This document shows, one piece after another, positions 1 to 24,196 of a stretch of DNA of 24,196 bases (positions are counted from its first letter, which is position 1; each line of letters begins with the position of its first letter). This stretch comes from Promethearchaeota archaeon (lineage in GTDB: Archaea > Asgardarchaeota > Thorarchaeia > Thorarchaeales > Thorarchaeaceae): the NCBI GenBank assembly GCA_014728035.1, contig WJMJ01000170.1:1-24196 (forward strand). The letters are read 5' to 3'. Made by a program: the position numbers and the translations under genes. The notes beneath the pieces were generated by a model. It was not told the origin of the DNA. It saw only the letters and a program-made list of their open reading frames with translations, and did no database searches.

Positions 1-45
1 ACTGTTCCGTCCCCGCACGTGTGCGATGTCCTGGGATGATAAGGC

Positions 46-202
46 CTACCATCCGTAACACGTGGTGCGGGCGCGATACAATGACTCTCAATTAGCAGAT
101 GTCATCCGACCCATCCGTCCCAGCACACGCGGGCGCGATGTATATTGTCTACAGGTCGCGGCATGGGCCGGACCCATCCGTCCCAGCACACGCGGGCGCG
201 AT
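46..202. CRISPR. CRISPR-like mini-array: two identical 32-nt repeats and one degenerate repeat, with a further remnant at about 5-27
   Basis: GACCCATCCGTCCCAGCACACGCGGGCGCGAT occurs at 108-139 and 171-202. A degenerate copy, CTACCATCCGTAACACGTGGTGCGGGCGCGAT, is at 46-77. Unrelated spacers are 30 nt (78-107) and 31 nt (140-170). No cas genes are in the window. Confidence 0.55.
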
Positions 203-290
203 ACTGACGGATCGTACCACAACCGATTGGGTTGGCGAGCGTATCATCTAAATGACCTCCCTCGCCTTTTGGCCACGAATGGATGGCCCT
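203..290. other. Structured GC-rich flank of the array (possible leader or ncRNA scaffold)
   Basis: Three consecutive hairpins: CAACC/GGTTG (about 220-234), GGCGAG/CTCGCC (about 234-266) and GGCCA/TGGCC (271-288). Confidence 0.3.
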
Positions 291-297
291 AAATATG

Positions 298-1236
298 CTA
301 TTTTATATCATGATTAGTAATTATATATGGCGGGTCGAGCTTCTTTTGTGAATCATAGCCACCAAATTCACGACGGAAGAAGCATGCTCTTCTCTTGTGT
401 GGCTTGGTTTTCTCTTCCAATTCTTTCTGGATTTTCGGATCCATTGGTCGAAAGCTTTTGGCTATAGCCACGTTTTCTTCTAATTGTTCTACCGAATCCA
501 TCCCCACTATTACCGTACCGACATCCTGGGACAAGGCATAGGTGAGTGGTTCCCAGGAAGTGGTTGCTGCTTTGGGATGGAAGACGAAACCTTGGGCGAA
601 TACCTTCATCCCGATCACTCCCATGTTGTCCTTCTTCGCTTCTTTCAACACCGTCTTAATAAAGGGCGGGTCCATAGACATGTCCCCCATGTTAACGGGG
701 CAAAGGACTGTATCGAAGGGATGTCTTTTCATTATTTCTAAAAGGACTCTGGGATAACTATGGCCGGTTATTCCTAGTTTCTTTACAACTCCTTCTTCTT
801 GCATCTCAAGAAGAGCTTCTAGTGCTCCATTTTTACCTGTTACTCTATTTACTTCTTCCATGGTGTCTAGGTGATGAATTTGCCAAATATCGATATAATC
901 TGTCTTCAATCTTTTCAGAGATTTTTCTATTTCTTTTAGACTACCGTCTCGATCTCTCACGTCTGTTTTCGTTGCAAGAATTATTTTGTCTCTCCACCCA
1001 CCCATCGCTTCGCCATAATAATTTTCTGATTCTCCATAAATGGGCGAAGTATCCATGTATCTAATTCCAAGATCAAATGCTTTTTGTATTATCTCTACAC
1101 AATTTTCTTTGTCTCCATGTGACTCCAGAGATCCTTGACCTCCGAGGCTAATTATGGGCACATCAAATCCGGTCTTTCCCAATTTTCTTGTTGGGATGTC
1201 ATTATTCTTGTCTTCAAACAGACAGTTTAATCTCAT
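298..1236 (-). CDS. Aldo/keto reductase
   Basis: Motifs RKLGKTG..LGG, DTSPIYG, LATK and SLKRLKTDYIDIWQIH. The catalytic D/Y/K/H tetrad is present. Confidence 0.93.
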   Translation of the reverse strand: MRLNCLFEDKNNDIPTRKLGKTGFDVPIISLGGQGSLESHGDKENCVEIIQKAFDLGIRYMDTSPIYGESENYYGEAMGGWRDKIILATKTDVRDRDGSLKEIEKSLKRLKTDYIDIWQIHHLDTMEEVNRVTGKNGALEALLEMQEEGVVKKLGITGHSYPRVLLEIMKRHPFDTVLCPVNMGDMSMDPPFIKTVLKEAKKDNMGVIGMKVFAQGFVFHPKAATTSWEPLTYALSQDVGTVIVGMDSVEQLEENVAIAKSFRPMDPKIQKELEEKTKPHKRRACFFRREFGGYDSQKKLDPPYIITNHDIK

Positions 1237-6636: not shown

Positions 6637-6960
6637 ATGAAAATGAAAGAATTTTGTAATCAAATTGAATCTTCTAAAGATATGAGTGGTGTTGGTATGG
6701 AATTGGGCGAAAATGATAAATTAAAGAGCGTGATTGTCAAGAGTGAGTTTACTGGTCTTGATGTAAAGTTGCCTGTTGAGGCCATAGAAAAATCTGATTG
6801 GAGCACAATCAGTGACATAATTGCTGGGAAAAGAGAACCTGCTGTCTTACAACACATGAGCAGGGTAGTAGGTTATTTTAGTAAAATAGAAAATTGGAAT
6901 TCGAGCAAGATTGGTGAATTGCACGACAGACAAAAGGGCGATTACCAACTTAAGGATTGA
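6637..6960 (+). CDS. Stand-alone NrdD-type glycyl-radical domain protein
   Basis: The C-terminal SRVVGYFSKIENWNSSKIGELHDR is the class III RNR glycyl-radical motif (Gly codon at 6871-6873). An AGGAG RBS is present. Confidence 0.85.
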   Translation: MKMKEFCNQIESSKDMSGVGMELGENDKLKSVIVKSEFTGLDVKLPVEAIEKSDWSTISDIIAGKREPAVLQHMSRVVGYFSKIENWNSSKIGELHDRQKGDYQLKD

Positions 6961-6965
6961 ACCAA

Positions 6966-7775
6966 ATGAAGATGTCTGTAATTACAGAAACCACGGAACT
7001 GGAATTTACTGAACCAGAAGGATATTTCGTGTATGGTGGTGATAAATATCCATATTGGGGCAATCCTGGTGGTAGATCAAAGACTATCGAATATGAAGTG
7101 GGTAAATTCAATCGATATGCAAAGATGGGTCATGCCGCTGATGAGTTGGTTGAAAAATTCGAGCGGAACGTAAAACAAGATTGGAAAGGTGTTAAAGGCA
7201 GATGCTCCTATGCTTGTTTAGTAATGATGAAATATGGAATAAGAATAGGAAATGAGGATTCTGCTGTCGGGTATGAGTCTGGCCTAGAAGAAACTGAGGG
7301 CGAAATAGTACAGACATATGGAACCACTACTCTATTAAACAAACATGTGTTTGTGGAAGAAGACAAAATAATTCTCGATTTTTTGGGCAAAACCCAAGTC
7401 GAACAACATGTGGATATAGATGATCCATTCGTTGTAGAATATGCGAAGAGATATGATGATTCGGATCGTCCAGAAGAGAAATGGCTTGGGATTGACTATG
7501 ATATGCTGTTTGATTTTGTAAAAAGTGAAGTCGGCGATTCTTTTGTACCCAAAGATTTTCGGACTTTTTGTGCAAATGTGACCGCGTGGAATGAAATTAA
7601 ATCATATCTTGACAACCCAAAAAGAGAAACAAGAACAGATGTTAACAATGAAATAAAAAGTGTTGTTGAAGCTGTTGCTAATCAATTGGGTAATACGCCC
7701 GGAATATCAAAACGTAATTATATTGATTCCAGAATGTTGGACTGGTTTAAGAGCAAAAGACTAAATGAAGAATAA
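6966..7775 (+). CDS. DNA topoisomerase IB, catalytic domain with a short N-terminus
   Basis: IRIGNE, TYGTTTL...HV, LDFLGK, KDFRT and LGNTPGISKRNYID give the R-K-R-N-Y pentad. AAGGA upstream supports ATG 6966. Confidence 0.88.
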   Translation: MKMSVITETTELEFTEPEGYFVYGGDKYPYWGNPGGRSKTIEYEVGKFNRYAKMGHAADELVEKFERNVKQDWKGVKGRCSYACLVMMKYGIRIGNEDSAVGYESGLEETEGEIVQTYGTTTLLNKHVFVEEDKIILDFLGKTQVEQHVDIDDPFVVEYAKRYDDSDRPEEKWLGIDYDMLFDFVKSEVGDSFVPKDFRTFCANVTAWNEIKSYLDNPKRETRTDVNNEIKSVVEAVANQLGNTPGISKRNYIDSRMLDWFKSKRLNEE

Positions 7776-11895: not shown

Positions 11896-12249
11896 ATGGG
11901 TAATAGTTGGCCGTCACATTGTACCTTAAGATCTCCATTCAATCACAATAATAAGGCCGCAGTGGGTGAACCCAGTCAAAAACCAGATGTTTCACAAGAG
12001 ACTATTAATCAAATTGCCCGAGAAATGGACAAACAGAAGCAGTCCATAAACATAAAATCAAAGCAAGAATTATGTCAGAAGATGCTTTCTTCCATGCCAG
12101 AAATTGATGAAACAATATCGGACGCAACTGAAGATCAACCAAATGAATTAGATAAATTATTAAATAATGGTTATAGACCGTTACATAAGACCAATGGCGA
12201 ATGGTCTGAATGTAATCCCAACCCACATAACAAGCTACTTTTAGAATAA
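11896..12249 (+). CDS. Hypothetical protein
   Basis: 117-aa ORF tightly packed after nrdD. No motif was recognised. Confidence 0.6.
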   Translation: MGNSWPSHCTLRSPFNHNNKAAVGEPSQKPDVSQETINQIAREMDKQKQSINIKSKQELCQKMLSSMPEIDETISDATEDQPNELDKLLNNGYRPLHKTNGEWSECNPNPHNKLLLE

Positions 12250-15200: not shown

Positions 15201-18200
15201 CAAGGTTACCCCAGAAGATGTTGATATGATTTTGGGTGGGTCTAAAATTGATAGATCAAATATGCTATCTTATGCGGTAAATTCATTGCGGCAATTGGCA
15301 TCTAAATCTGCCAAAACAAACGTCAGAGAAAAAGTTGCTCCGGTTATGAGAGACATGGTGGAAAGAGACGGAAAAACCAATAAATTCATCCGTGCTATCA
15401 TAGAATCTCTTACTGCTATTGTAGAAACGCATATTGTGCAATGTTCGCAGACTGTTATGTTTGGTGGTGGTGGAACAAAAACAGGAGTTTCGTACAAAGA
15501 CGAAGATGGTTATCTAAGAATGCCTCCAGGATGGGATCCTGGAGAACTATATGGTAGGAGATCAAATCCTTATGCCGCAATACGTTCCTTGGCCAAGCAA
15601 ATTGACAGAATAAGCAGCGATGACAGATATTCAGAGGACCAAAAAGAAGAAGAAATAAATAAACGCAAAGAAATGATTAAATTATATAGCAGAAAAATGG
15701 AACAGGATCCGAAAGCCCGTAAGGTAGCCAATAGAGCACACTTAATAAATAGTATAAATAATCCATTTCTTCCGATTAATCAGGATCGTTTATCTAAATT
15801 AATGTCCAAGATGGAAGATTTTTATAATGGTTATGATGTGGAATGGGAAACTTATGATGTGACACTACCATCTGGCGATACGCAAATGGTATCTGAACCA
15901 GATATGGTTGATTTCTTACACAAGAATACTCCACTTATGCAAAGTATGGGAGTTAATGTTGCTAGAGTAGTTCTTAGATATTTAACTGAGACACCGCGCA
16001 GTGTTGCTATTGCTGGCATTCCAGAAAGACTCCCGACAGACAGGAGCAAAGACATAACTGATTTAGGCGCAATGAATGCGAGTAATGTGATTACAAGCAT
16101 GCTTGGCATGATTGGGGCCAAAGACTACCTGCATGGAAGAGACGAAGAAGATGAAGATGGCAATAAGTATCACATAGATGGTTTAATGGATGTTATGGAA
16201 AGTCAAGGATTAACAAAGTATCTTGAAGACATATCTGTCCCATCAAGAATTGTTCCTCAATTAGCTATGGAATTGGCCCTATGGGTGAACGGCCAAAAGG
16301 CGAAGGGCGGATTGGACATAGATGGTGCTAAGCTGGTCAGAGAACATATCAGAAACAAGCTTTTTGACTACATAAGCGCATCTATTCCAACACCAAAGGG
16401 CGAACTAGATAGAAGTTCTATTAATGCAAGGCGAGATATAGTTAATAAGATCAACAAAGCATCGAACAAGGTTGTTGAACAGATGATAAAACTTTCAACA
16501 CCAGATGCAGATGAAATATTGGATGGCCAAAAAGAGTTTGACAACGTTGTAGACATGTTCGCTAGAATGAAATCTGGAATGTTAAGATTGAAAGATTCAG
16601 ATTTACATTATAGCGCAGCCGATGAAGCTGACGTTAATGTAATAAATGATTTGATAAATTCAGCAAACAGTTTCAGAGAAACTGGCAATATAGAAGAATT
16701 AAAGAAAACATATAAGAATTTCCTGAATCTCTGTAATGATTTAGCAGTTAAGAAAGATTCTGAAAGGGTATTTGCAGATGCCACTCAGCATCTTGGGAAT
16801 ATTGATAGATTAGACAATCTGTCTTATCTAGTTTCTAAGATGGACAGAGCTGATGGAGAAGAGAGAGAAGACATAAAAACAAGCATAACGACATTAATTG
16901 ATGAACTGTCGGATAGAGGAGTTATATTATCTGGTGATTTAGGGTCGTTACCGGCATTGATGGATTCTGCTGCCAATTCTCGCAAAGACGAAATGAATAG
17001 AATTGAATCAATTATTGGGAGATATGCCAATATACCTAGAGATTATACGGATTATACTATTTCAATTCCCGAATTAGAAAACACTGAGGGAGATAAAGTC
17101 AAGATAGGTATCGATACTGATCTTGTATCAACTGTATATAGCAAGCTTAATGAGATAAGAAATGTTGCTCTTGCTATTGGCGATTATCATAGGGCAAGAG
17201 AAACAATAGAAACAGAAAACCCAGAATCAGCAGAATATGAGGATGCATTGGCTCGTAAAGAACAGGCTTACGAAACCATACATGTGTCAATGGGAAAAAT
17301 TGCTAGTGATATTGGGGAGACACCTGGTGCGAAATTAGATACACAAGGTGGGATAATTCATAAATTCACTGGGGAATTAGATAAATTCTCTAAAGAATAT
17401 AAGGGTCGTTTGGGTCTATATGATAAGTTAATAGATATCAGAAACGATCTTCTTGGACAGGGATTGTCCGACGATCAAATAAGAGAAGGTTATGTTAATA
17501 TTTATCGCAAATTATTACAGTCTGCTAAAGTATATAATTTAGAACCTCGACACGTTGCTTCAGAGTTAGCTGATAGATTTAGAAAATATATTGAATTTAA
17601 GAGAGAACAACACCGGACGAGAAGAGAAGCTTTTGGTGGTATAGAAATAGATACTATATTGTATGTTCCAGGATCGTCTGAACCGTTAGAAGTTTCTATT
17701 TATCCCATGGAAAATGTTTATGATAAGGTCAGTAAAACTCTTGATTCTGGGATATCGCTTGAGGCTACTTTGATCAATCCACAAAAATTCATAAATTCTG
17801 GAGAAGGTGTTCTGTCAATAAAATATGACAATGTGCAAGAAATGGAAAAAGGAGAAACAGAGACAGAAATAGCGCCAGAGGAAGAATACAGCATCGATGC
17901 AAATATGACTATAAGGTCAGCTGTTGAGATAGATATCGATAAACACGATGAAATAATAACATATCTGAACCAAAGTGGCAAAAAGCCAGTTATTATAAAG
18001 AAAACTAAAAAGGGCGAATTTTGTTGGGACAAATTAAGAGACAGTGTCAATGATTTGATAGATGAGACAAAGCCATTGCTTGAAAAAATGAGATCTGATT
18101 TTTCTGGGTTGGCTAAGAAATTTGGTTCAGATGAGTTGGCCAATGCTGTCGAGCATTATGATTTAGACAGAATGAGATCAATTGCAGATCATCTTATTGA

Positions 18201-21264: not shown

Positions 21265-21816
21265 ATGCCATATAATTTCCCGATACCAAGATCTAGAGGG
21301 TGTCAGCCTCCTAGAGAAGACAGTGAAAATAAATGTACTAGTGGATGCCTCGGTAACGAAGAGTTCTTCGTTAACGATATGATTTTGCATGCATTAATTG
21401 GCAGAGTAACTGCAAACAACGGAACTACTTACGAATTCGAGACTTTATATGATCCAGAATTAAAAGCAATGGAGGTAGACATACCTAGTTGCTATATGGA
21501 TTATCTCGAGACTGTCCAGGTTGGTCCTAATATACAGAGATATTTGCGATGGTTGATAGGCATAGCTTTTGGTGGATTGGCTAGCAATCTTTATTGGGCA
21601 GGCGAAGATGAGCTGGTTGACCTCGGTGGTGGGGTTTGGCAAACTCCACATGATTTCTTTGACGAGACATTGGCTGTGTTCGTTAATGGCAAAAAGGTCG
21701 ACAGACACAGATCAAACGGTTTTGAAGTCCTGAGTGACAATACTTTCAAAATGAAAGATACACACCCATCTAGTTGTGGTGCTAAAATTTCTGTGGGATA
21801 CATGAAAAACGAATGA
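21265..21816 (+). CDS. Hypothetical, probably structural protein
   Basis: The C-terminal beta-rich module (TLAVFVNG....F..) is of a kind seen in large-phage tail proteins. ATGA overlap with the fiber gene. Confidence 0.6.
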   Translation: MPYNFPIPRSRGCQPPREDSENKCTSGCLGNEEFFVNDMILHALIGRVTANNGTTYEFETLYDPELKAMEVDIPSCYMDYLETVQVGPNIQRYLRWLIGIAFGGLASNLYWAGEDELVDLGGGVWQTPHDFFDETLAVFVNGKKVDRHRSNGFEVLSDNTFKMKDTHPSSCGAKISVGYMKNE

Positions 21817-24196
21817 GCGACGTAGATCCTGATGCTTTACAACAAGACTTTCAAATCTCTGGTTCGTGTAATTATGACGATACCATAGTTAATCCACATG
21901 ACCAAGGTGTAGCTGAGGGGCAAGACAATCTTGAGGGCGACCTGAATATGCTCAGGACGCTCTTGAGAATACTTCTTGGAACAACTAATTGGTATGATCC
22001 GCCGGAGATGACCATTCAGGACATCTCCGACAAGATGATACCAGAACCAGTTCATCCATCTGGTTTTGATGGTGTAACTGTATCCGGTGGTAGTACCACT
22101 GCTTTTGACTCCGCAATTAAAACAATTACTAATCATAATTCTGGTGTTGGAAGCCCAACCACAGACGGGGTGGTTGTTGATTCTACACGTTCTCATGTTC
22201 TTCATGTTAGAGATAGTTCAACACATGATCCTATCGACGATGGTGCCGGTAACAAAGTTTACGGGCGCTTATCTTATGGCGCCGGAACCTACACAGTTAC
22301 ATTCTATTCTTGGGTTGGTGGAGTAGAGACACCATATACGTTTACTGCTCCGAGAGATGTTGATCTTGGTTATGTACTCGTTTCAAGAAGATACGAGGAT
22401 CTGGAATGGGATAGATTTTTTGACCTTGAATTCCAGGATAATATTACTGGAGTTGGTGGTTATCAAGGTTATCAAGGACCAGCCGGAATAGATGGAACCC
22501 AGGGTCCTCAAGGGTGGCAAGGCCAAGTCGGAGTTACTGGTTTTCAAGGTCCTCAAGGATTCTTTGGCCCACAGGGTTATTCTCCACAGGGACCACAGGG
22601 TTTCCAGGGATCAGGTTTTCAAGGACCGCAGGGAAATGAGGGGAACGATGGAATTCAGGGTCCACAAGGTTCTGGATACCAAGGCCCAGCTGGAATAGAT
22701 GGAACCCAAGGTCCGCAGGGTTTTCAAGGTCCGCAAGGTTTAGGCTTCCAAGGCAACAGTGGTATTCAGGGACCACAGGGCTTTGGGTTTCAGGGATTTG
22801 TAGGCACACAAGGACCTCAAGGTTGGCAAGGAACACAAGGTAACCAGGGGACATCCGGGACACAAGGACATCAGGGTTTTGGTTATCAGGGTGTGCAGGG
22901 GCCAGCAGGTATAGACGGAACCCAAGGTCCACAGGGAGTAGACGGAACTCAAGGTCCCCAAGGATGGCAGGGCCAAATAGGATCTACTGGTTTCCAAGGT
23001 CCTCAAGGATTCTTTGGTCCACAGGGTTATTCTCCACAGGGACCGCAAGGCCATCGTGGGTTCCAGGGAGTAAGAGGTGTACAGGGGCCACAAGGAAATC
23101 AAGGAATACAAGGTTTTCAAGGTAATGATGGCCCACAAGGATTTCAGGGATTACAAGGAAATCAAGGTAATCGTGGTTATCAAGGATATCAGGGATCATT
23201 CGGAGTAGATGGAACCCAAGGTCCGCAAGGGTTTCAGGGATGGCAAGGCAAAATTGGTCAGCAGGGTAATCAAGGACCTCAAGGATGGCAAGGATCTATT
23301 GGTTATCAAGGCAACCAGGGTAATCAAGGAAATCAAGGTGATTTTGGACCACAGGGCTTCCAAGGGTTAGTTGGTACGCAAGGAACTCAAGGGGATCAAG
23401 GTCCGCAAGGCAACCAGGGTAATCAAGGAAATCAAGGTGAATTTGGGCCGCAAGGCTTCGGTTATCAGGGTGTACAAGGACCAGCAGGGACAGATGGAAC
23501 TCAAGGTCCACAGGGATGGCAAGGTCAAATAGGATCTACTGGTTTCCAAGGTCCTCAAGGATTCTTTGGTCCACAGGGTTATTCTCCCCAAGGCCCACAG
23601 GGTTTTCAAGGGAAACGTGGCTTCCAAGGCCCACAGGGCAATCAGGGTTGGCAAGGGGAAGTTGGGCCTCAGGGGTTTGGTTTTCAAGGAGCAAGAGGAC
23701 CACAAGGTAACCAAGGCAATCAAGGTTGGCAAGGTAAAGTTGGACCACAGGGGACTACAGGGCCACAAGGAAATCGGGGTTTTCAGGGAGTTCGTGGCAC
23801 ACAGGGGAATCAAGGAAAGCGTGGTTATCAAGGAATAAGGGGTCCAGGGCGGCAGGGGCCACAAGGCTGGCAGGGTAAGCGTGGTTTCCAAGGCAATCGC
23901 GGATTTCAGGGTAACCAAGGCAACCAAGGAAATCAGGGCTGGCAAGGTGAATTTGGGCCGCAAGGCTTCGGTTATCAGGGTGTACAAGGACCGGCAGGGA
24001 TAGACGGAACTCAAGGTCCCCAAGGATGGCAGGGCCAAATTGGATCTATTGGTTTTCAGGGTCCTCAAGGATTCTTTGGCCCACAGGGTTATTCTCCACA
24101 GGGACCACAGGGTTTCCAGGGATCAGGTTTTCAAGGACCGCAGGGAAATGAGGGGAACGATGGAATTCAGGGTCCACAAGGTTCTGGATACCAAGG
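21813..24196 (+). CDS. Collagen-like fiber protein, 3'-truncated by the window end (not in the ORF track)
   Basis: Translated by hand from MSDVDPDALQQDFQISGS. About 215 aa of non-repetitive sequence precede Gly-X-Gln triplets from 22458 to the end. No stop codon was seen. Confidence 0.92.
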   Translation, partial: MSDVDPDALQQDFQISGSCNYDDTIVNPHDQGVAEGQDNLEGDLNMLRTLLRILLGTTNWYDPPEMTIQDISDKMIPEPVHPSGFDGVTVSGGSTTAFDSAIKTITNHNSGVGSPTTDGVVVDSTRSHVLHVRDSSTHDPIDDGAGNKVYGRLSYGAGTYTVTFYSWVGGVETPYTFTAPRDVDLGYVLVSRRYEDLEWDRFFDLEFQDNITGVGGYQGYQGPAGIDGTQGPQGWQGQVGVTGFQGPQGFFGPQGYSPQGPQGFQGSGFQGPQGNEGNDGIQGPQGSGYQGPAGIDGTQGPQGFQGPQGLGFQGNSGIQGPQGFGFQGFVGTQGPQGWQGTQGNQGTSGTQGHQGFGYQGVQGPAGIDGTQGPQGVDGTQGPQGWQGQIGSTGFQGPQGFFGPQGYSPQGPQGHRGFQGVRGVQGPQGNQGIQGFQGNDGPQGFQGLQGNQGNRGYQGYQGSFGVDGTQGPQGFQGWQGKIGQQGNQGPQGWQGSIGYQGNQGNQGNQGDFGPQGFQGLVGTQGTQGDQGPQGNQGNQGNQGEFGPQGFGYQGVQGPAGTDGTQGPQGWQGQIGSTGFQGPQGFFGPQGYSPQGPQGFQGKRGFQGPQGNQGWQGEVGPQGFGFQGARGPQGNQGNQGWQGKVGPQGTTGPQGNRGFQGVRGTQGNQGKRGYQGIRGPGRQGPQGWQGKRGFQGNRGFQGNQGNQGNQGWQGEFGPQGFGYQGVQGPAGIDGTQGPQGWQGQIGSIGFQGPQGFFGPQGYSPQGPQGFQGSGFQGPQGNEGNDGIQGPQGSGYQ
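22458..24196 (+). repeat. Collagen G-X-Q repeat region with higher-order modules
   Basis: The module G[IVT]DGTQGPQGWQGQ.G..GFQGPQGFFGPQGYSPQGPQG starts at 22485, 22935, 23487 and 23997. Confidence 0.92.

What the first reader, a model, noticed from the sequence alone, without database searches (positions are those of the whole stretch)
1..202. Orphan CRISPR-like mini-array with polarised decay
Seen: two identical 32-nt repeats, one degenerate copy and a remnant, with 30-31-nt unique spacers and a 62-63-nt period, in a GC-rich island unlike the rest of the window. Decay increases leftwards, suggesting the leader is on the right and transcription is on the minus strand. The minus-strand repeat ATCGCGCCCGCGTGTGCTGGGACGGATGGGTC loosely resembles type I-C starts and I-E stems but lacks the usual 3' handle. 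Known: phages carry cas-less mini-arrays that use host Cas proteins, and also repeat-like RNA anti-CRISPRs. Inferred: it could be a phage guide cassette, a decoy, or the array of an effector just outside the window. I saw no convincing protospacer in the window.
Basis: partly seen in the sequence, partly recalled or inferred. Interest (0 to 1): 0.7.

Follow-up and report, generated by a model that had tools for sequence, protein, structure and literature searches.

The report
Orphan phage guide-RNA cassette, Cas12f-type
The small repeat array at the end of this contig is real. It is most likely a diverged copy of the "folded RNA handle plus mini-array" guide cassettes that a related T4-like phage in the same sample keeps beside a cutting-disabled Cas12f-like protein, but its own protein partner and its targets are not on the DNA available.

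Summary
There are two identical 32-nt copies (108-139, 171-202), a degenerate copy (46-77) and a remnant (1-27) in a 58-59% GC island, at base 1 of a 24-kb phage contig binned into a Thorarchaeota MAG.

It is not a type I-C or I-E array, and it is unrelated to the archaeon's own arrays (AT-rich, TTGAAAG-type, with cas1-cas2 on C104). Read on the minus strand, its 29-nt core repeat matches 20 of 29 positions (p<5e-5) of the repeat of six scaffold-led mini-arrays on contigs C70, C74 and C131. Those contigs belong to a T4-like phage whose Cas12f/TnpB-like gene appears to have lost its catalytic residues.

C152 comes from a second, related phage (orthologs 42-61% identical). It shares the 62-63-nt period, distal repeat decay, GC-rich composition, a -10-like box, and a first hairpin whose loop pairs with the repeat's 3' end. 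Hairpins 2 and 3 are only analogous, and covariance models built from the six copies do not detect the C152 flank significantly.

No effector gene for this phage is on the contig or in the bin, and no spacer target or outside relative was found. The scan has already recorded this kind of system on other DNA (at least 16 genomes). This copy adds a diverged comparison point.

The parts
300..311 (-). -10-like promoter box (ATGATATAAAAT on the minus strand), overlapping the stop codon (300..298) of the aldo-keto reductase gene
   Evidence: The same GATATAWAAT box lies directly 5' of hairpin 1 in 4 of the 6 phage-A cassettes. It is about 10 times more frequent on the phage contigs than on the large archaeal contigs. 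Not called by the generic sigma-70 scan. Function inferred.
203..291 (-). Structured GC-rich RNA flank ('scaffold') upstream of the first repeat, with three hairpins
   Evidence: RNA folding gives H1 and H2 in both the MFE and centroid structures; z = -2.1 alone and -2.8 with the first repeat. It has the same three-hairpin order as the phage-A scaffold. It is not significantly similar overall and is not found by the scaffold-only covariance model.
271..288 (-). Hairpin 1: 5-bp stem (GGCCA/TGGCC) with an 8-nt loop complementary to the last 7 nt of the repeat (one G-U pair)
   Evidence: loop-repeat duplex of 7 bp at the repeat's 3' end (chance about 0.06). Phage A has the equivalent 8-bp duplex although 5 of 8 loop bases differ. 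The H1 region is similar in sequence to phage A's (p about 0.001), including the CATCC anti-repeat.
234..266 (-). Hairpin 2: 6-bp GC-rich stem with a 21-nt internal region that forms a further small stem
   Evidence: The stem sequence is entirely different from phage A's hairpin 2 but is paired in both. The loop is 15 nt longer than in phage A.
220..233 (-). Hairpin 3 (weak): 4 bp, or 5 bp if C234 is borrowed from hairpin 2
   Evidence: Covariance-model alignment and helix listing. The MFE offers an alternative pairing. Least certain element.
174..202 (-). Repeat R3 (proximal, perfect); the identical copy extends to 171
   Evidence: 20/29 ungapped (23/30 gapped) identity to the phage-A repeat, never reached in 20,000 shuffles.
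140..173 (-). Spacer S1 (34 nt; 31 nt if the repeat is 32 nt)
   Evidence: No significant match in the bin, the phage records, genome contigs or viral contigs.
111..139 (-). Repeat R2 (perfect); the identical copy extends to 108
78..110 (-). Spacer S2 (33 nt; 30 nt if the repeat is 32 nt)
   Evidence: No match.
49..77 (-). Repeat R1 (degenerate, 21/29): both ends conserved, middle scrambled
28..48 (-). Short spacer S3 (21 nt)
   Evidence: Short, irregular distal spacers also occur in the phage-A arrays.
1..27 (-). Repeat R0 (remnant with a 2-nt deletion), ending at the contig end
   Evidence: Distal repeats with internal deletions are typical of the phage-A arrays.
298..1236 (-). Aldo-keto reductase gene immediately upstream, same strand (context only, not part of the system)
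   Evidence: Pfam PF00248, E 8e-34. Its ortholog on C70 is 55% identical and has no array downstream.

Best explanation
Bases 1-311, read on the minus strand, form a guide-RNA cassette of a T4-like bacteriophage ('phage B') that was binned by mistake with an Asgard archaeon. The cassette has a -10-like box, then an ~89-nt folded RNA handle, then a mini-array of four 29-nt repeats (two perfect, two decayed) with 34-, 33- and 21-nt spacers. It is a diverged homolog of six cassettes in a related phage ('phage A', contigs C70, C74 and C131), two of which flank a 463-aa Cas12f/TnpB-like protein that appears to have lost its RuvC catalytic residues. By inference, the transcript supplies handle-repeat-spacer guide RNAs in the Cas12 orientation (spacer 3' of the repeat). 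The loop of hairpin 1 pairs with the 3' end of the repeat next to the guide. The RNA would load into phage B's own ortholog of that dead Cas12f-like protein, which would then bind matching DNA without cutting it, to repress or steer genes of the host, of a rival element or of the phage itself. Shown: the anatomy, the repeat and hairpin-1 homology, the two-phage relationship, and the Cas12f-like protein in phage A. Inferred: transcription, loading, the existence of a phage-B effector, and binding without cleavage.
For: The window is the whole of contig C152. C152 proteins have orthologs on C70 at 42-61% identity. C131 carries a T4 Gp23-type capsid gene, so there are two related phages. Six scaffold-led arrays lie on C70, C74 and C131. 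The repeat matches 20/29 positions, p<5e-5. The period is 62-63 nt against 61-62 nt in phage A. All seven cassettes are 54-59% GC in 38-43% GC backbones and share the GATATAWAAT box. The distal repeat decay is the same. The H1 region is similar with p about 0.001. The H1 loop pairs with the last 7-8 nt of its own repeat in both phages despite 5 of 8 loop differences, and the extra C in the B repeat is matched by a G in the B loop. Hairpins 2 and 3 stay paired with different sequences. The full covariance model aligns end to end at 293..174 on the minus strand, exactly in register with the first repeat. The C131 protein matches Cas12f 9nzq (E 1.5e-6) and guided_TnpB (2.4e-6, below cut-off). In that alignment the GVDmG and iqmEDL motifs, which I take from my own knowledge of the family to be RuvC-I and RuvC-II, align to EVAFT and IEVFNM, and the protein ends soon after. 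This matches the C-terminal truncation reported for natural dCas12f (PMC13472631).
Against: The full covariance model scores only 8.5 bits (E about 0.45), third in the window. The scaffold-only model does not find the flank at all. Whole-scaffold sequence similarity is not significant. No Cas12f/TnpB-like gene lies on C152, and none besides the phage-A gene is near arrays in the bin. The array position is not syntenic with phage A. No spacer target was found. No expression data could be obtained. Only two repeats are intact, so the cassette could be decaying. That the phage-A arrays serve the Cas12f-like protein is itself an inference from adjacency and RNA anatomy.
Confidence: 0.6

Rival explanations
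1. Cas-less hijack or decoy RNA. The cassette has no effector of its own in phage B and instead loads into, or titrates, a Cas12f-type protein made by the host or by a co-infecting relative such as phage A. This would resemble RNA anti-CRISPRs or viral crRNA-like regulatory RNAs.
For: No effector on the contig or for phage B in the bin. The A and B handles remain cross-compatible over a 6-bp core, GGAUGG with CAUCC. Both phages occur in one sample. Published precedents: Racrs (PMC10651486) and phage crlRNAs (10.1101/2024.10.29.618823), both.
Against: Phage B is only partly present in the bin: no second capsid gene and few B contigs. Absence of the effector is therefore weak evidence. The scaffold has diverged far more than a mimic of phage A's RNA should. 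The host is unknown, so mimicry of host repeats cannot be tested.
Confidence: 0.15
2. Decaying relic. It is a former guide cassette that no longer functions and is on its way to loss.
For: Only two perfect repeats; the other two are degenerate. Hairpin 3 is weak and shares a base with hairpin 2. There are no targets and no effector is seen.
Against: Two 32-nt copies are still identical. The promoter-like box, hairpins 1 and 2 and the loop-repeat complementarity are intact. The presumably functional phage-A arrays show the same distal decay.
Confidence: 0.12
3. The end of an ordinary adaptive CRISPR array (type I or V with cas1-cas2) whose cas operon lies beyond the contig end.
For: Regular repeat-spacer geometry. 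The contig ends inside the array.
Against: The only cas1-cas2 in the bin is on the archaeal contig C104, beside an unrelated 37-nt AT-rich repeat. No Rfam CRISPR-DR family matches. The related phage-A arrays are six scattered 3-6-unit cassettes without adaptation genes. Decay points to the contig end as the distal end, so little array is likely to be missing.
Confidence: 0.08
4. Assembly chimera or coding repeat. The first 300 nt come from a GC-rich organism, or they encode a repetitive peptide.
For: An abrupt GC jump at about 300. A 77-codon stop-free frame runs through the repeats on the plus strand.
Against: All six phage-A cassettes are equally GC-rich islands inside long AT-rich contigs. 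The phage-type box and the AKR stop codon overlap the junction. The frame has no start codon and merely repeats the translated repeat.
Confidence: 0.03

Closest known systems
The six scaffold-led mini-array cassettes of the related T4-like phage in the same bin (C70:19357, C70:19914, C70:57656, C74:9640 minus strand, C131:6889, C131:9651), with the dead Cas12f-like gene at C131:7211-8599
   Same: 29-nt repeat with 20/29 identity. The same GGATGG 3' end and the CATCC anti-repeat in the loop region of hairpin 1. 61-63-nt period, 3-6 units, distal decay by internal deletion, a GC-rich island, a GATATAWAAT box, and three hairpins before the first repeat.
   Different: Hairpins 2 and 3 and the tail share no significant sequence. 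Hairpin 2 is 15 nt longer. The box lies 9 nt further upstream. The repeat has two 1-nt indels. The genomic position differs. No effector gene is at hand.
Natural nuclease-dead Cas12f systems of Bacteroidota (Hoffmann, Wiegand et al., Nature 2026, PMC13472631), including the briefly noted dCas12f cluster encoded near CRISPR arrays
   Same: A miniature Cas12f-type protein with a truncated or inactive RuvC site, and guide RNAs with a structured handle 5' of the guide. CRISPR-array-linked members are mentioned and are proposed to repress transcription.
   Different: Those are chromosomal, mostly sigma-E-linked, and use single guide RNAs. Here the system is phage-borne, with a handle fused to several repeat-spacer units and several cassettes per genome. 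No sigma factor link was examined, and for this contig the protein is missing.
Type V-F CRISPR-Cas12f (Cas14) with tracrRNA
   Same: Repeat-then-spacer orientation. An upstream RNA element base-pairs with the guide-proximal part of the repeat. The best structural relatives of the phage-A protein are Cas12f chains (9nzq, 7wju, 8j12).
   Different: No cas1, cas2 or cas4. The effector is inactive. The handle is about 80-90 nt and fused in cis to the array rather than being a separate tracrRNA gene.
Phage RNA anti-CRISPRs (Racrs, PMC10651486) and viral crRNA-like regulatory RNAs (10.1101/2024.10.29.618823)
   Same: Cas-less repeat units or mini-arrays in phage genomes.
   Different: Those mimic the host's repeats and depend on host Cas proteins. 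Here the repeat family is tied to a phage-encoded protein in the sister phage, and a structured handle precedes the array.

Membership tests
Scaffold-led guide cassettes of the sister phage (phage A) | 29-nt repeat of the family | tested here: met
   20/29 ungapped and 23/30 gapped identity; 0 of 20,000 shuffles reach it.
Scaffold-led guide cassettes of the sister phage (phage A) | Array geometry: about 61-63-nt period, 3-6 units, distal repeats decayed | tested here: met
   Periods of 63, 62 and 50 nt in C152 against 61-62 nt and then 46-58 nt in phage A.
Scaffold-led guide cassettes of the sister phage (phage A) | Hairpin 1 whose 8-nt loop pairs with the 3' end of the repeat | tested here: met
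   7-bp duplex in B and 8-bp in A, each at the repeat's last bases. H1 region similarity p about 0.001.
Scaffold-led guide cassettes of the sister phage (phage A) | Whole scaffold recognisable by a covariance model of the six copies | tested here: not met
   Full model 8.5 bits, E 0.45, rank 3. The scaffold-only model gives no hit at E<=10. Global sequence similarity p 0.24. The six training copies are 98% identical, so the model is narrow.
Scaffold-led guide cassettes of the sister phage (phage A) | A dead Cas12f-like gene in the same genome | tested here: inconclusive
   None on C152, and no second copy in the bin, but phage B is only partly represented.
Type V-F CRISPR-Cas12f / dCas12f | Effector of the TnpB/Cas12f fold next to the array | tested here: inconclusive
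   Met for phage A by sequence (9nzq E 1.5e-6; NF040570 2.4e-6, below cut-off). Not testable for phage B because the contig ends.
Type V-F CRISPR-Cas12f / dCas12f | Adaptation genes cas1, cas2 and cas4 | tested here: not met
   The only cas1-cas2 in the bin is on archaeal contig C104, with an unrelated repeat.
   No Rfam family, including the CRISPR-DR models, reaches its gathering score anywhere in the window. No dedicated CRISPR repeat database was available.
Racr / viral crRNA-like RNAs | Repeat mimics the host's own CRISPR repeat | not testable with these tools
   The bacterial host is unknown. The archaeal repeats in the bin are unrelated, but that archaeon is not the host of a T4-like phage.

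The most novel reading that the evidence does not exclude
The cassette is an effector-less 'guide parasite' or decoy in a conflict between related phages. Phage B keeps just enough of the shared handle (the GGAUGG repeat end and the CAUCC anti-repeat) to load its own spacers into, or jam, the dead Cas12f-like protein made by a co-infecting relative such as phage A.
Probability: 0.08. Interest if true: 0.8.

Novelty: new variant of a known kind. Interest (0 to 1): 0.42.

Why it matters
Natural dead-Cas12f systems were described only recently, and only in bacterial chromosomes. Phage-borne versions, with a folded handle fused to small arrays, appear in this scan's notes but in none of the papers I searched.

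This cassette is the first diverged relative of the phage-A cassettes that I could find. Comparing the two shows which RNA features are kept across about 45% protein divergence: the repeat ends, hairpin 1, and its loop-to-repeat pairing. It also shows which features are free to change: hairpins 2 and 3, the tail, and the genomic position. That gives concrete, testable constraints for defining the minimal guide RNA of these compact DNA binders. It also shows that the system is inherited within a phage lineage and is not a one-off.

On its own, the fragment has no effector and no known target, so its value is mainly comparative.

Tried and rejected
**Searches for the repeat or family**
- The exact 32-mer is absent from viral contigs, genome contigs and metagenome contigs.
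- A family-wide degenerate repeat pattern is absent from viral and metagenome contigs.
- The B-type handle twice at array spacing gave no hit.
- The A-type handle twice at array spacing gave seven viral contigs. All were Trp-Glu-Asp-Gly-type coding repeats or unrelated iterons, not arrays.

**Searches for the effector or related phages**
- Relatives of the phage-A effector: none in viral contigs, and only itself among 5.8 billion proteins.
- AKR relatives in viral contigs: none.

**Spacer targets**
- Only chance-level matches in the bin and in phage records.
- No exact 24-mer in genome contigs, and no 20-mers in viral contigs.

- Sequencing runs: none was listed, so neither expression nor the junction could be checked with reads.

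**Other negative results**
- No tRNA genes in the window. No Rfam family reached its gathering score.
- The generic sigma-70 and terminator scan gave nothing useful on the minus strand.
- Covariance models built from phage A did not significantly detect the B scaffold.
- The tetranucleotide profile did not group C152 with C70, C74 or C131. This is what pointed to a second phage.

**Readings rejected**
- A type I-C or I-E array.
- An array belonging to the archaeal cas1-cas2 locus on C104.
- An assembly chimera.
- A coding repeat.

Full report
**Observation.** The window is the whole of contig C152 (24,196 bp) in a 173-contig bin. The repeat finder gives two identical 32-nt copies at 108-139 and 171-202, a third at 46-77 (66%), and a core match at 6-18. 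The first 300 bases are 58% GC against 39% for the contig. The 32-mer occurs nowhere else in the bin, even with eight mismatches allowed. The repeats are real, regularly spaced (63 and 62 nt) and cut by the contig end.

**What the bin is.** Earlier notes of this scan call the genome a Thorarchaeota MAG with phage contamination. I checked the parts that matter here.
- The bin has one cas1-cas2 pair, on C104. It sits beside an array with a 37-nt AT-rich repeat ending TTGAAAG.
- Three more arrays, on C36, C83 and C143, have similar AT-rich repeats.
- None of these resembles the GC-rich repeat of C152, so the array does not belong to the archaeon's CRISPR-Cas system.

C152 itself looks viral. It carries a clamp-loader-type ATPase, a 3D-domain peptidase, a split anaerobic ribonucleotide reductase, topoisomerase IB, a 2054-aa ORF with no family match, and a Gln-rich collagen-like fibre.

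**The related cassettes.** I followed the lead in notes e1-5560615, e1-5560911 and e1-5560909 and searched the bin for the repeat's 3' motif. I found six mini-arrays on C70 (three), C74 (one) and C131 (two).
- Each starts with a nearly invariant ~80-nt element that folds into three hairpins.
- This is followed by 3-6 copies of a 29-nt repeat with a 61-62-nt period.
- The distal copies carry internal deletions and have shorter spacers.

C131 also encodes a T4 Gp23-type major capsid protein. Between its two cassettes lies a 463-aa protein with these properties:
- It matches Cas12f 9nzq (E 1.5e-6), other Cas12f/TnpB chains, and NCBIfam guided_TnpB (2.4e-6, below that family's cut-off).
- In the 9nzq alignment, the motifs GVDmG and iqmEDL align to EVAFT and IEVFNM. 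I take these to be the RuvC-I and RuvC-II motifs from my own knowledge of the family, not from a tool result.
- The protein ends about 16 residues after the last aligned stretch, while 9nzq continues for some 67 residues.
- This agrees with the C-terminal truncation reported for natural dCas12f (PMC13472631).
- It is single-copy in the bin.

**How C152 relates to them.** On the minus strand, the C152 repeat core is 29 nt (202..174), judged from what is conserved in the degenerate copy.
- It matches the phage-A repeat at 20 of 29 positions without gaps, or 23 of 30 with two 1-nt gaps. No composition-preserving shuffle out of 20,000 reached this.
- The period, the number of units and the style of distal decay are the same.
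- All seven cassettes are 54-59% GC islands in 38-43% GC backbones. This removes the chimera worry.
- A GATATAWAAT box is about ten times enriched on the phage contigs. It lies just upstream of hairpin 1 in four A cassettes and in C152.

C152 is not part of phage A. Eight of its proteins have orthologs on C70 at only 42-61% identity, and its tetranucleotide profile is closer to C26 and C140. It therefore represents a second, related phage (B) that is only partly present in the bin. The AKR ortholog in phage A is followed by a terminator-like hairpin and a convergent gene, not by an array, so cassette positions are not conserved.

**The flank.** The 89 nt between the box and the first repeat (291..203, minus strand) fold into three hairpins.
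- *Hairpin 1.* Its region is significantly similar to phage A's (p about 0.001). In both phages the 8-nt loop pairs with the last 7-8 nt of that phage's own repeat, although five of the eight loop bases differ. The extra C in the B repeat is matched by a G in the B loop. The chance of such a duplex at that position is about 0.06 for each phage.
- *Hairpins 2 and 3.* These are paired in both phages with unrelated sequences. Hairpin 3 of B is weak and shares a base with hairpin 2.

The limits are clear.
- The covariance model built from the six A cassettes aligns end to end at 293..174, in register with the first repeat, but scores only 8.5 bits (E about 0.45), third in the window.
- The scaffold-only model misses the flank.
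- Whole-scaffold sequence similarity is not significant.
- Homology is therefore supported for the repeat and hairpin 1. The rest of the scaffold is analogous in architecture only.

**Mechanism.** The order handle-repeat-spacer matches Cas12-type guide RNAs, in which the guide lies 3' of the repeat-derived part and an upstream RNA element pairs with the guide-proximal end of the repeat. This last point is from established knowledge of type V-F and TnpB RNAs, and from the handle description in PMC13472631. The most likely reading is that the cassette makes guide RNAs for phage B's own dead Cas12f-like protein, encoded off this contig, which binds matching DNA without cutting it. Transcription, loading and the existence of that protein are all inferred.

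**Targets and relatives.** No target was found for S1, S2 or S3 in the bin, the phage records, viral contigs or species-representative genomes. No relatives of the repeat family were found outside this bin. The seven hits to the loosest pattern were coding repeats or unrelated iterons.

**Rivals.**
- Hijack or decoy RNA without its own effector remains possible. The A and B handles share a 6-bp cross-compatible core, and there are published precedents for cas-less viral repeat RNAs.
- A decaying relic is possible, because only two repeats are intact.
- An ordinary adaptive array, a chimera and a coding repeat are all unlikely.

**Novelty and verdict.** The scan has already reported phage dead-Cas12f guide arrays on other DNA: at least 16 genomes, including phage A of this bin. 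Published work describes chromosomal dCas12f and only briefly mentions array-linked members. This cassette is a new, diverged instance of that variant. Its main use is as a natural comparison that shows which RNA features are conserved.

Noticed in passing
G000 contig C104:1-2400 (locus L003/L004): The archaeal CRISPR-Cas locus starts at a contig end with a 37-nt AT-rich repeat array, followed by cas1, cas2, a cas4-like ORF and a large HD-like gene. Further arrays with a related 31-nt repeat ending TTGAAAG lie on C36, C83 and C143, all at or near contig ends.
   Followed up: partly
window 16236-16298 (minus) and 12180-12211 (minus): Both covariance models give their best or second-best window hits here (12.6 bits, E 0.08; 8.2-9.5 bits, E 0.2-0.8). 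These are hairpin-1-like stem-loops antisense inside the 2054-aa ORF and at the end of the 117-aa ORF. No repeats follow them. Probably chance, but they outrank the real cassette flank.
   Followed up: partly
G000 contigs C118 and C158 versus C131:1-700: ORFs on C118 and C158 are 76-81% identical to the start of C131. This suggests a third phage variant or strain in the bin, besides phages A and B.
   Followed up: no
window 298-1236 (minus) and C70:40778-41695: Both related phages carry an aldo-keto reductase (55% identical to each other). This is an unusual auxiliary gene conserved across the two phages, with a different downstream neighbourhood in each.
   Followed up: partly
L005 (C131) 6950-7100; C70:57930-58045; C70:20030-20060: Distal repeats of the phage-A arrays are shortened to 21-23 nt by clean internal deletions that keep both repeat ends. 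One cassette (C131:6889) uses a second repeat variant that starts ATCG, as the C152 repeat does.
   Followed up: partly
window 21813-24194 and C70:48135-48970: Both phages encode Gln-rich collagen-like fibres (Gly-X-Gln triplets) at about 50-56% identity. In C152 the gene runs off the right end of the contig.
   Followed up: no
window 59-292 (plus): A 77-codon stop-free frame runs through the repeats and translates to a repeated PIRPSTRGRD peptide. It has no start codon and is convergent with the AKR gene. I take it as a by-product of the repeats.
   Followed up: yes
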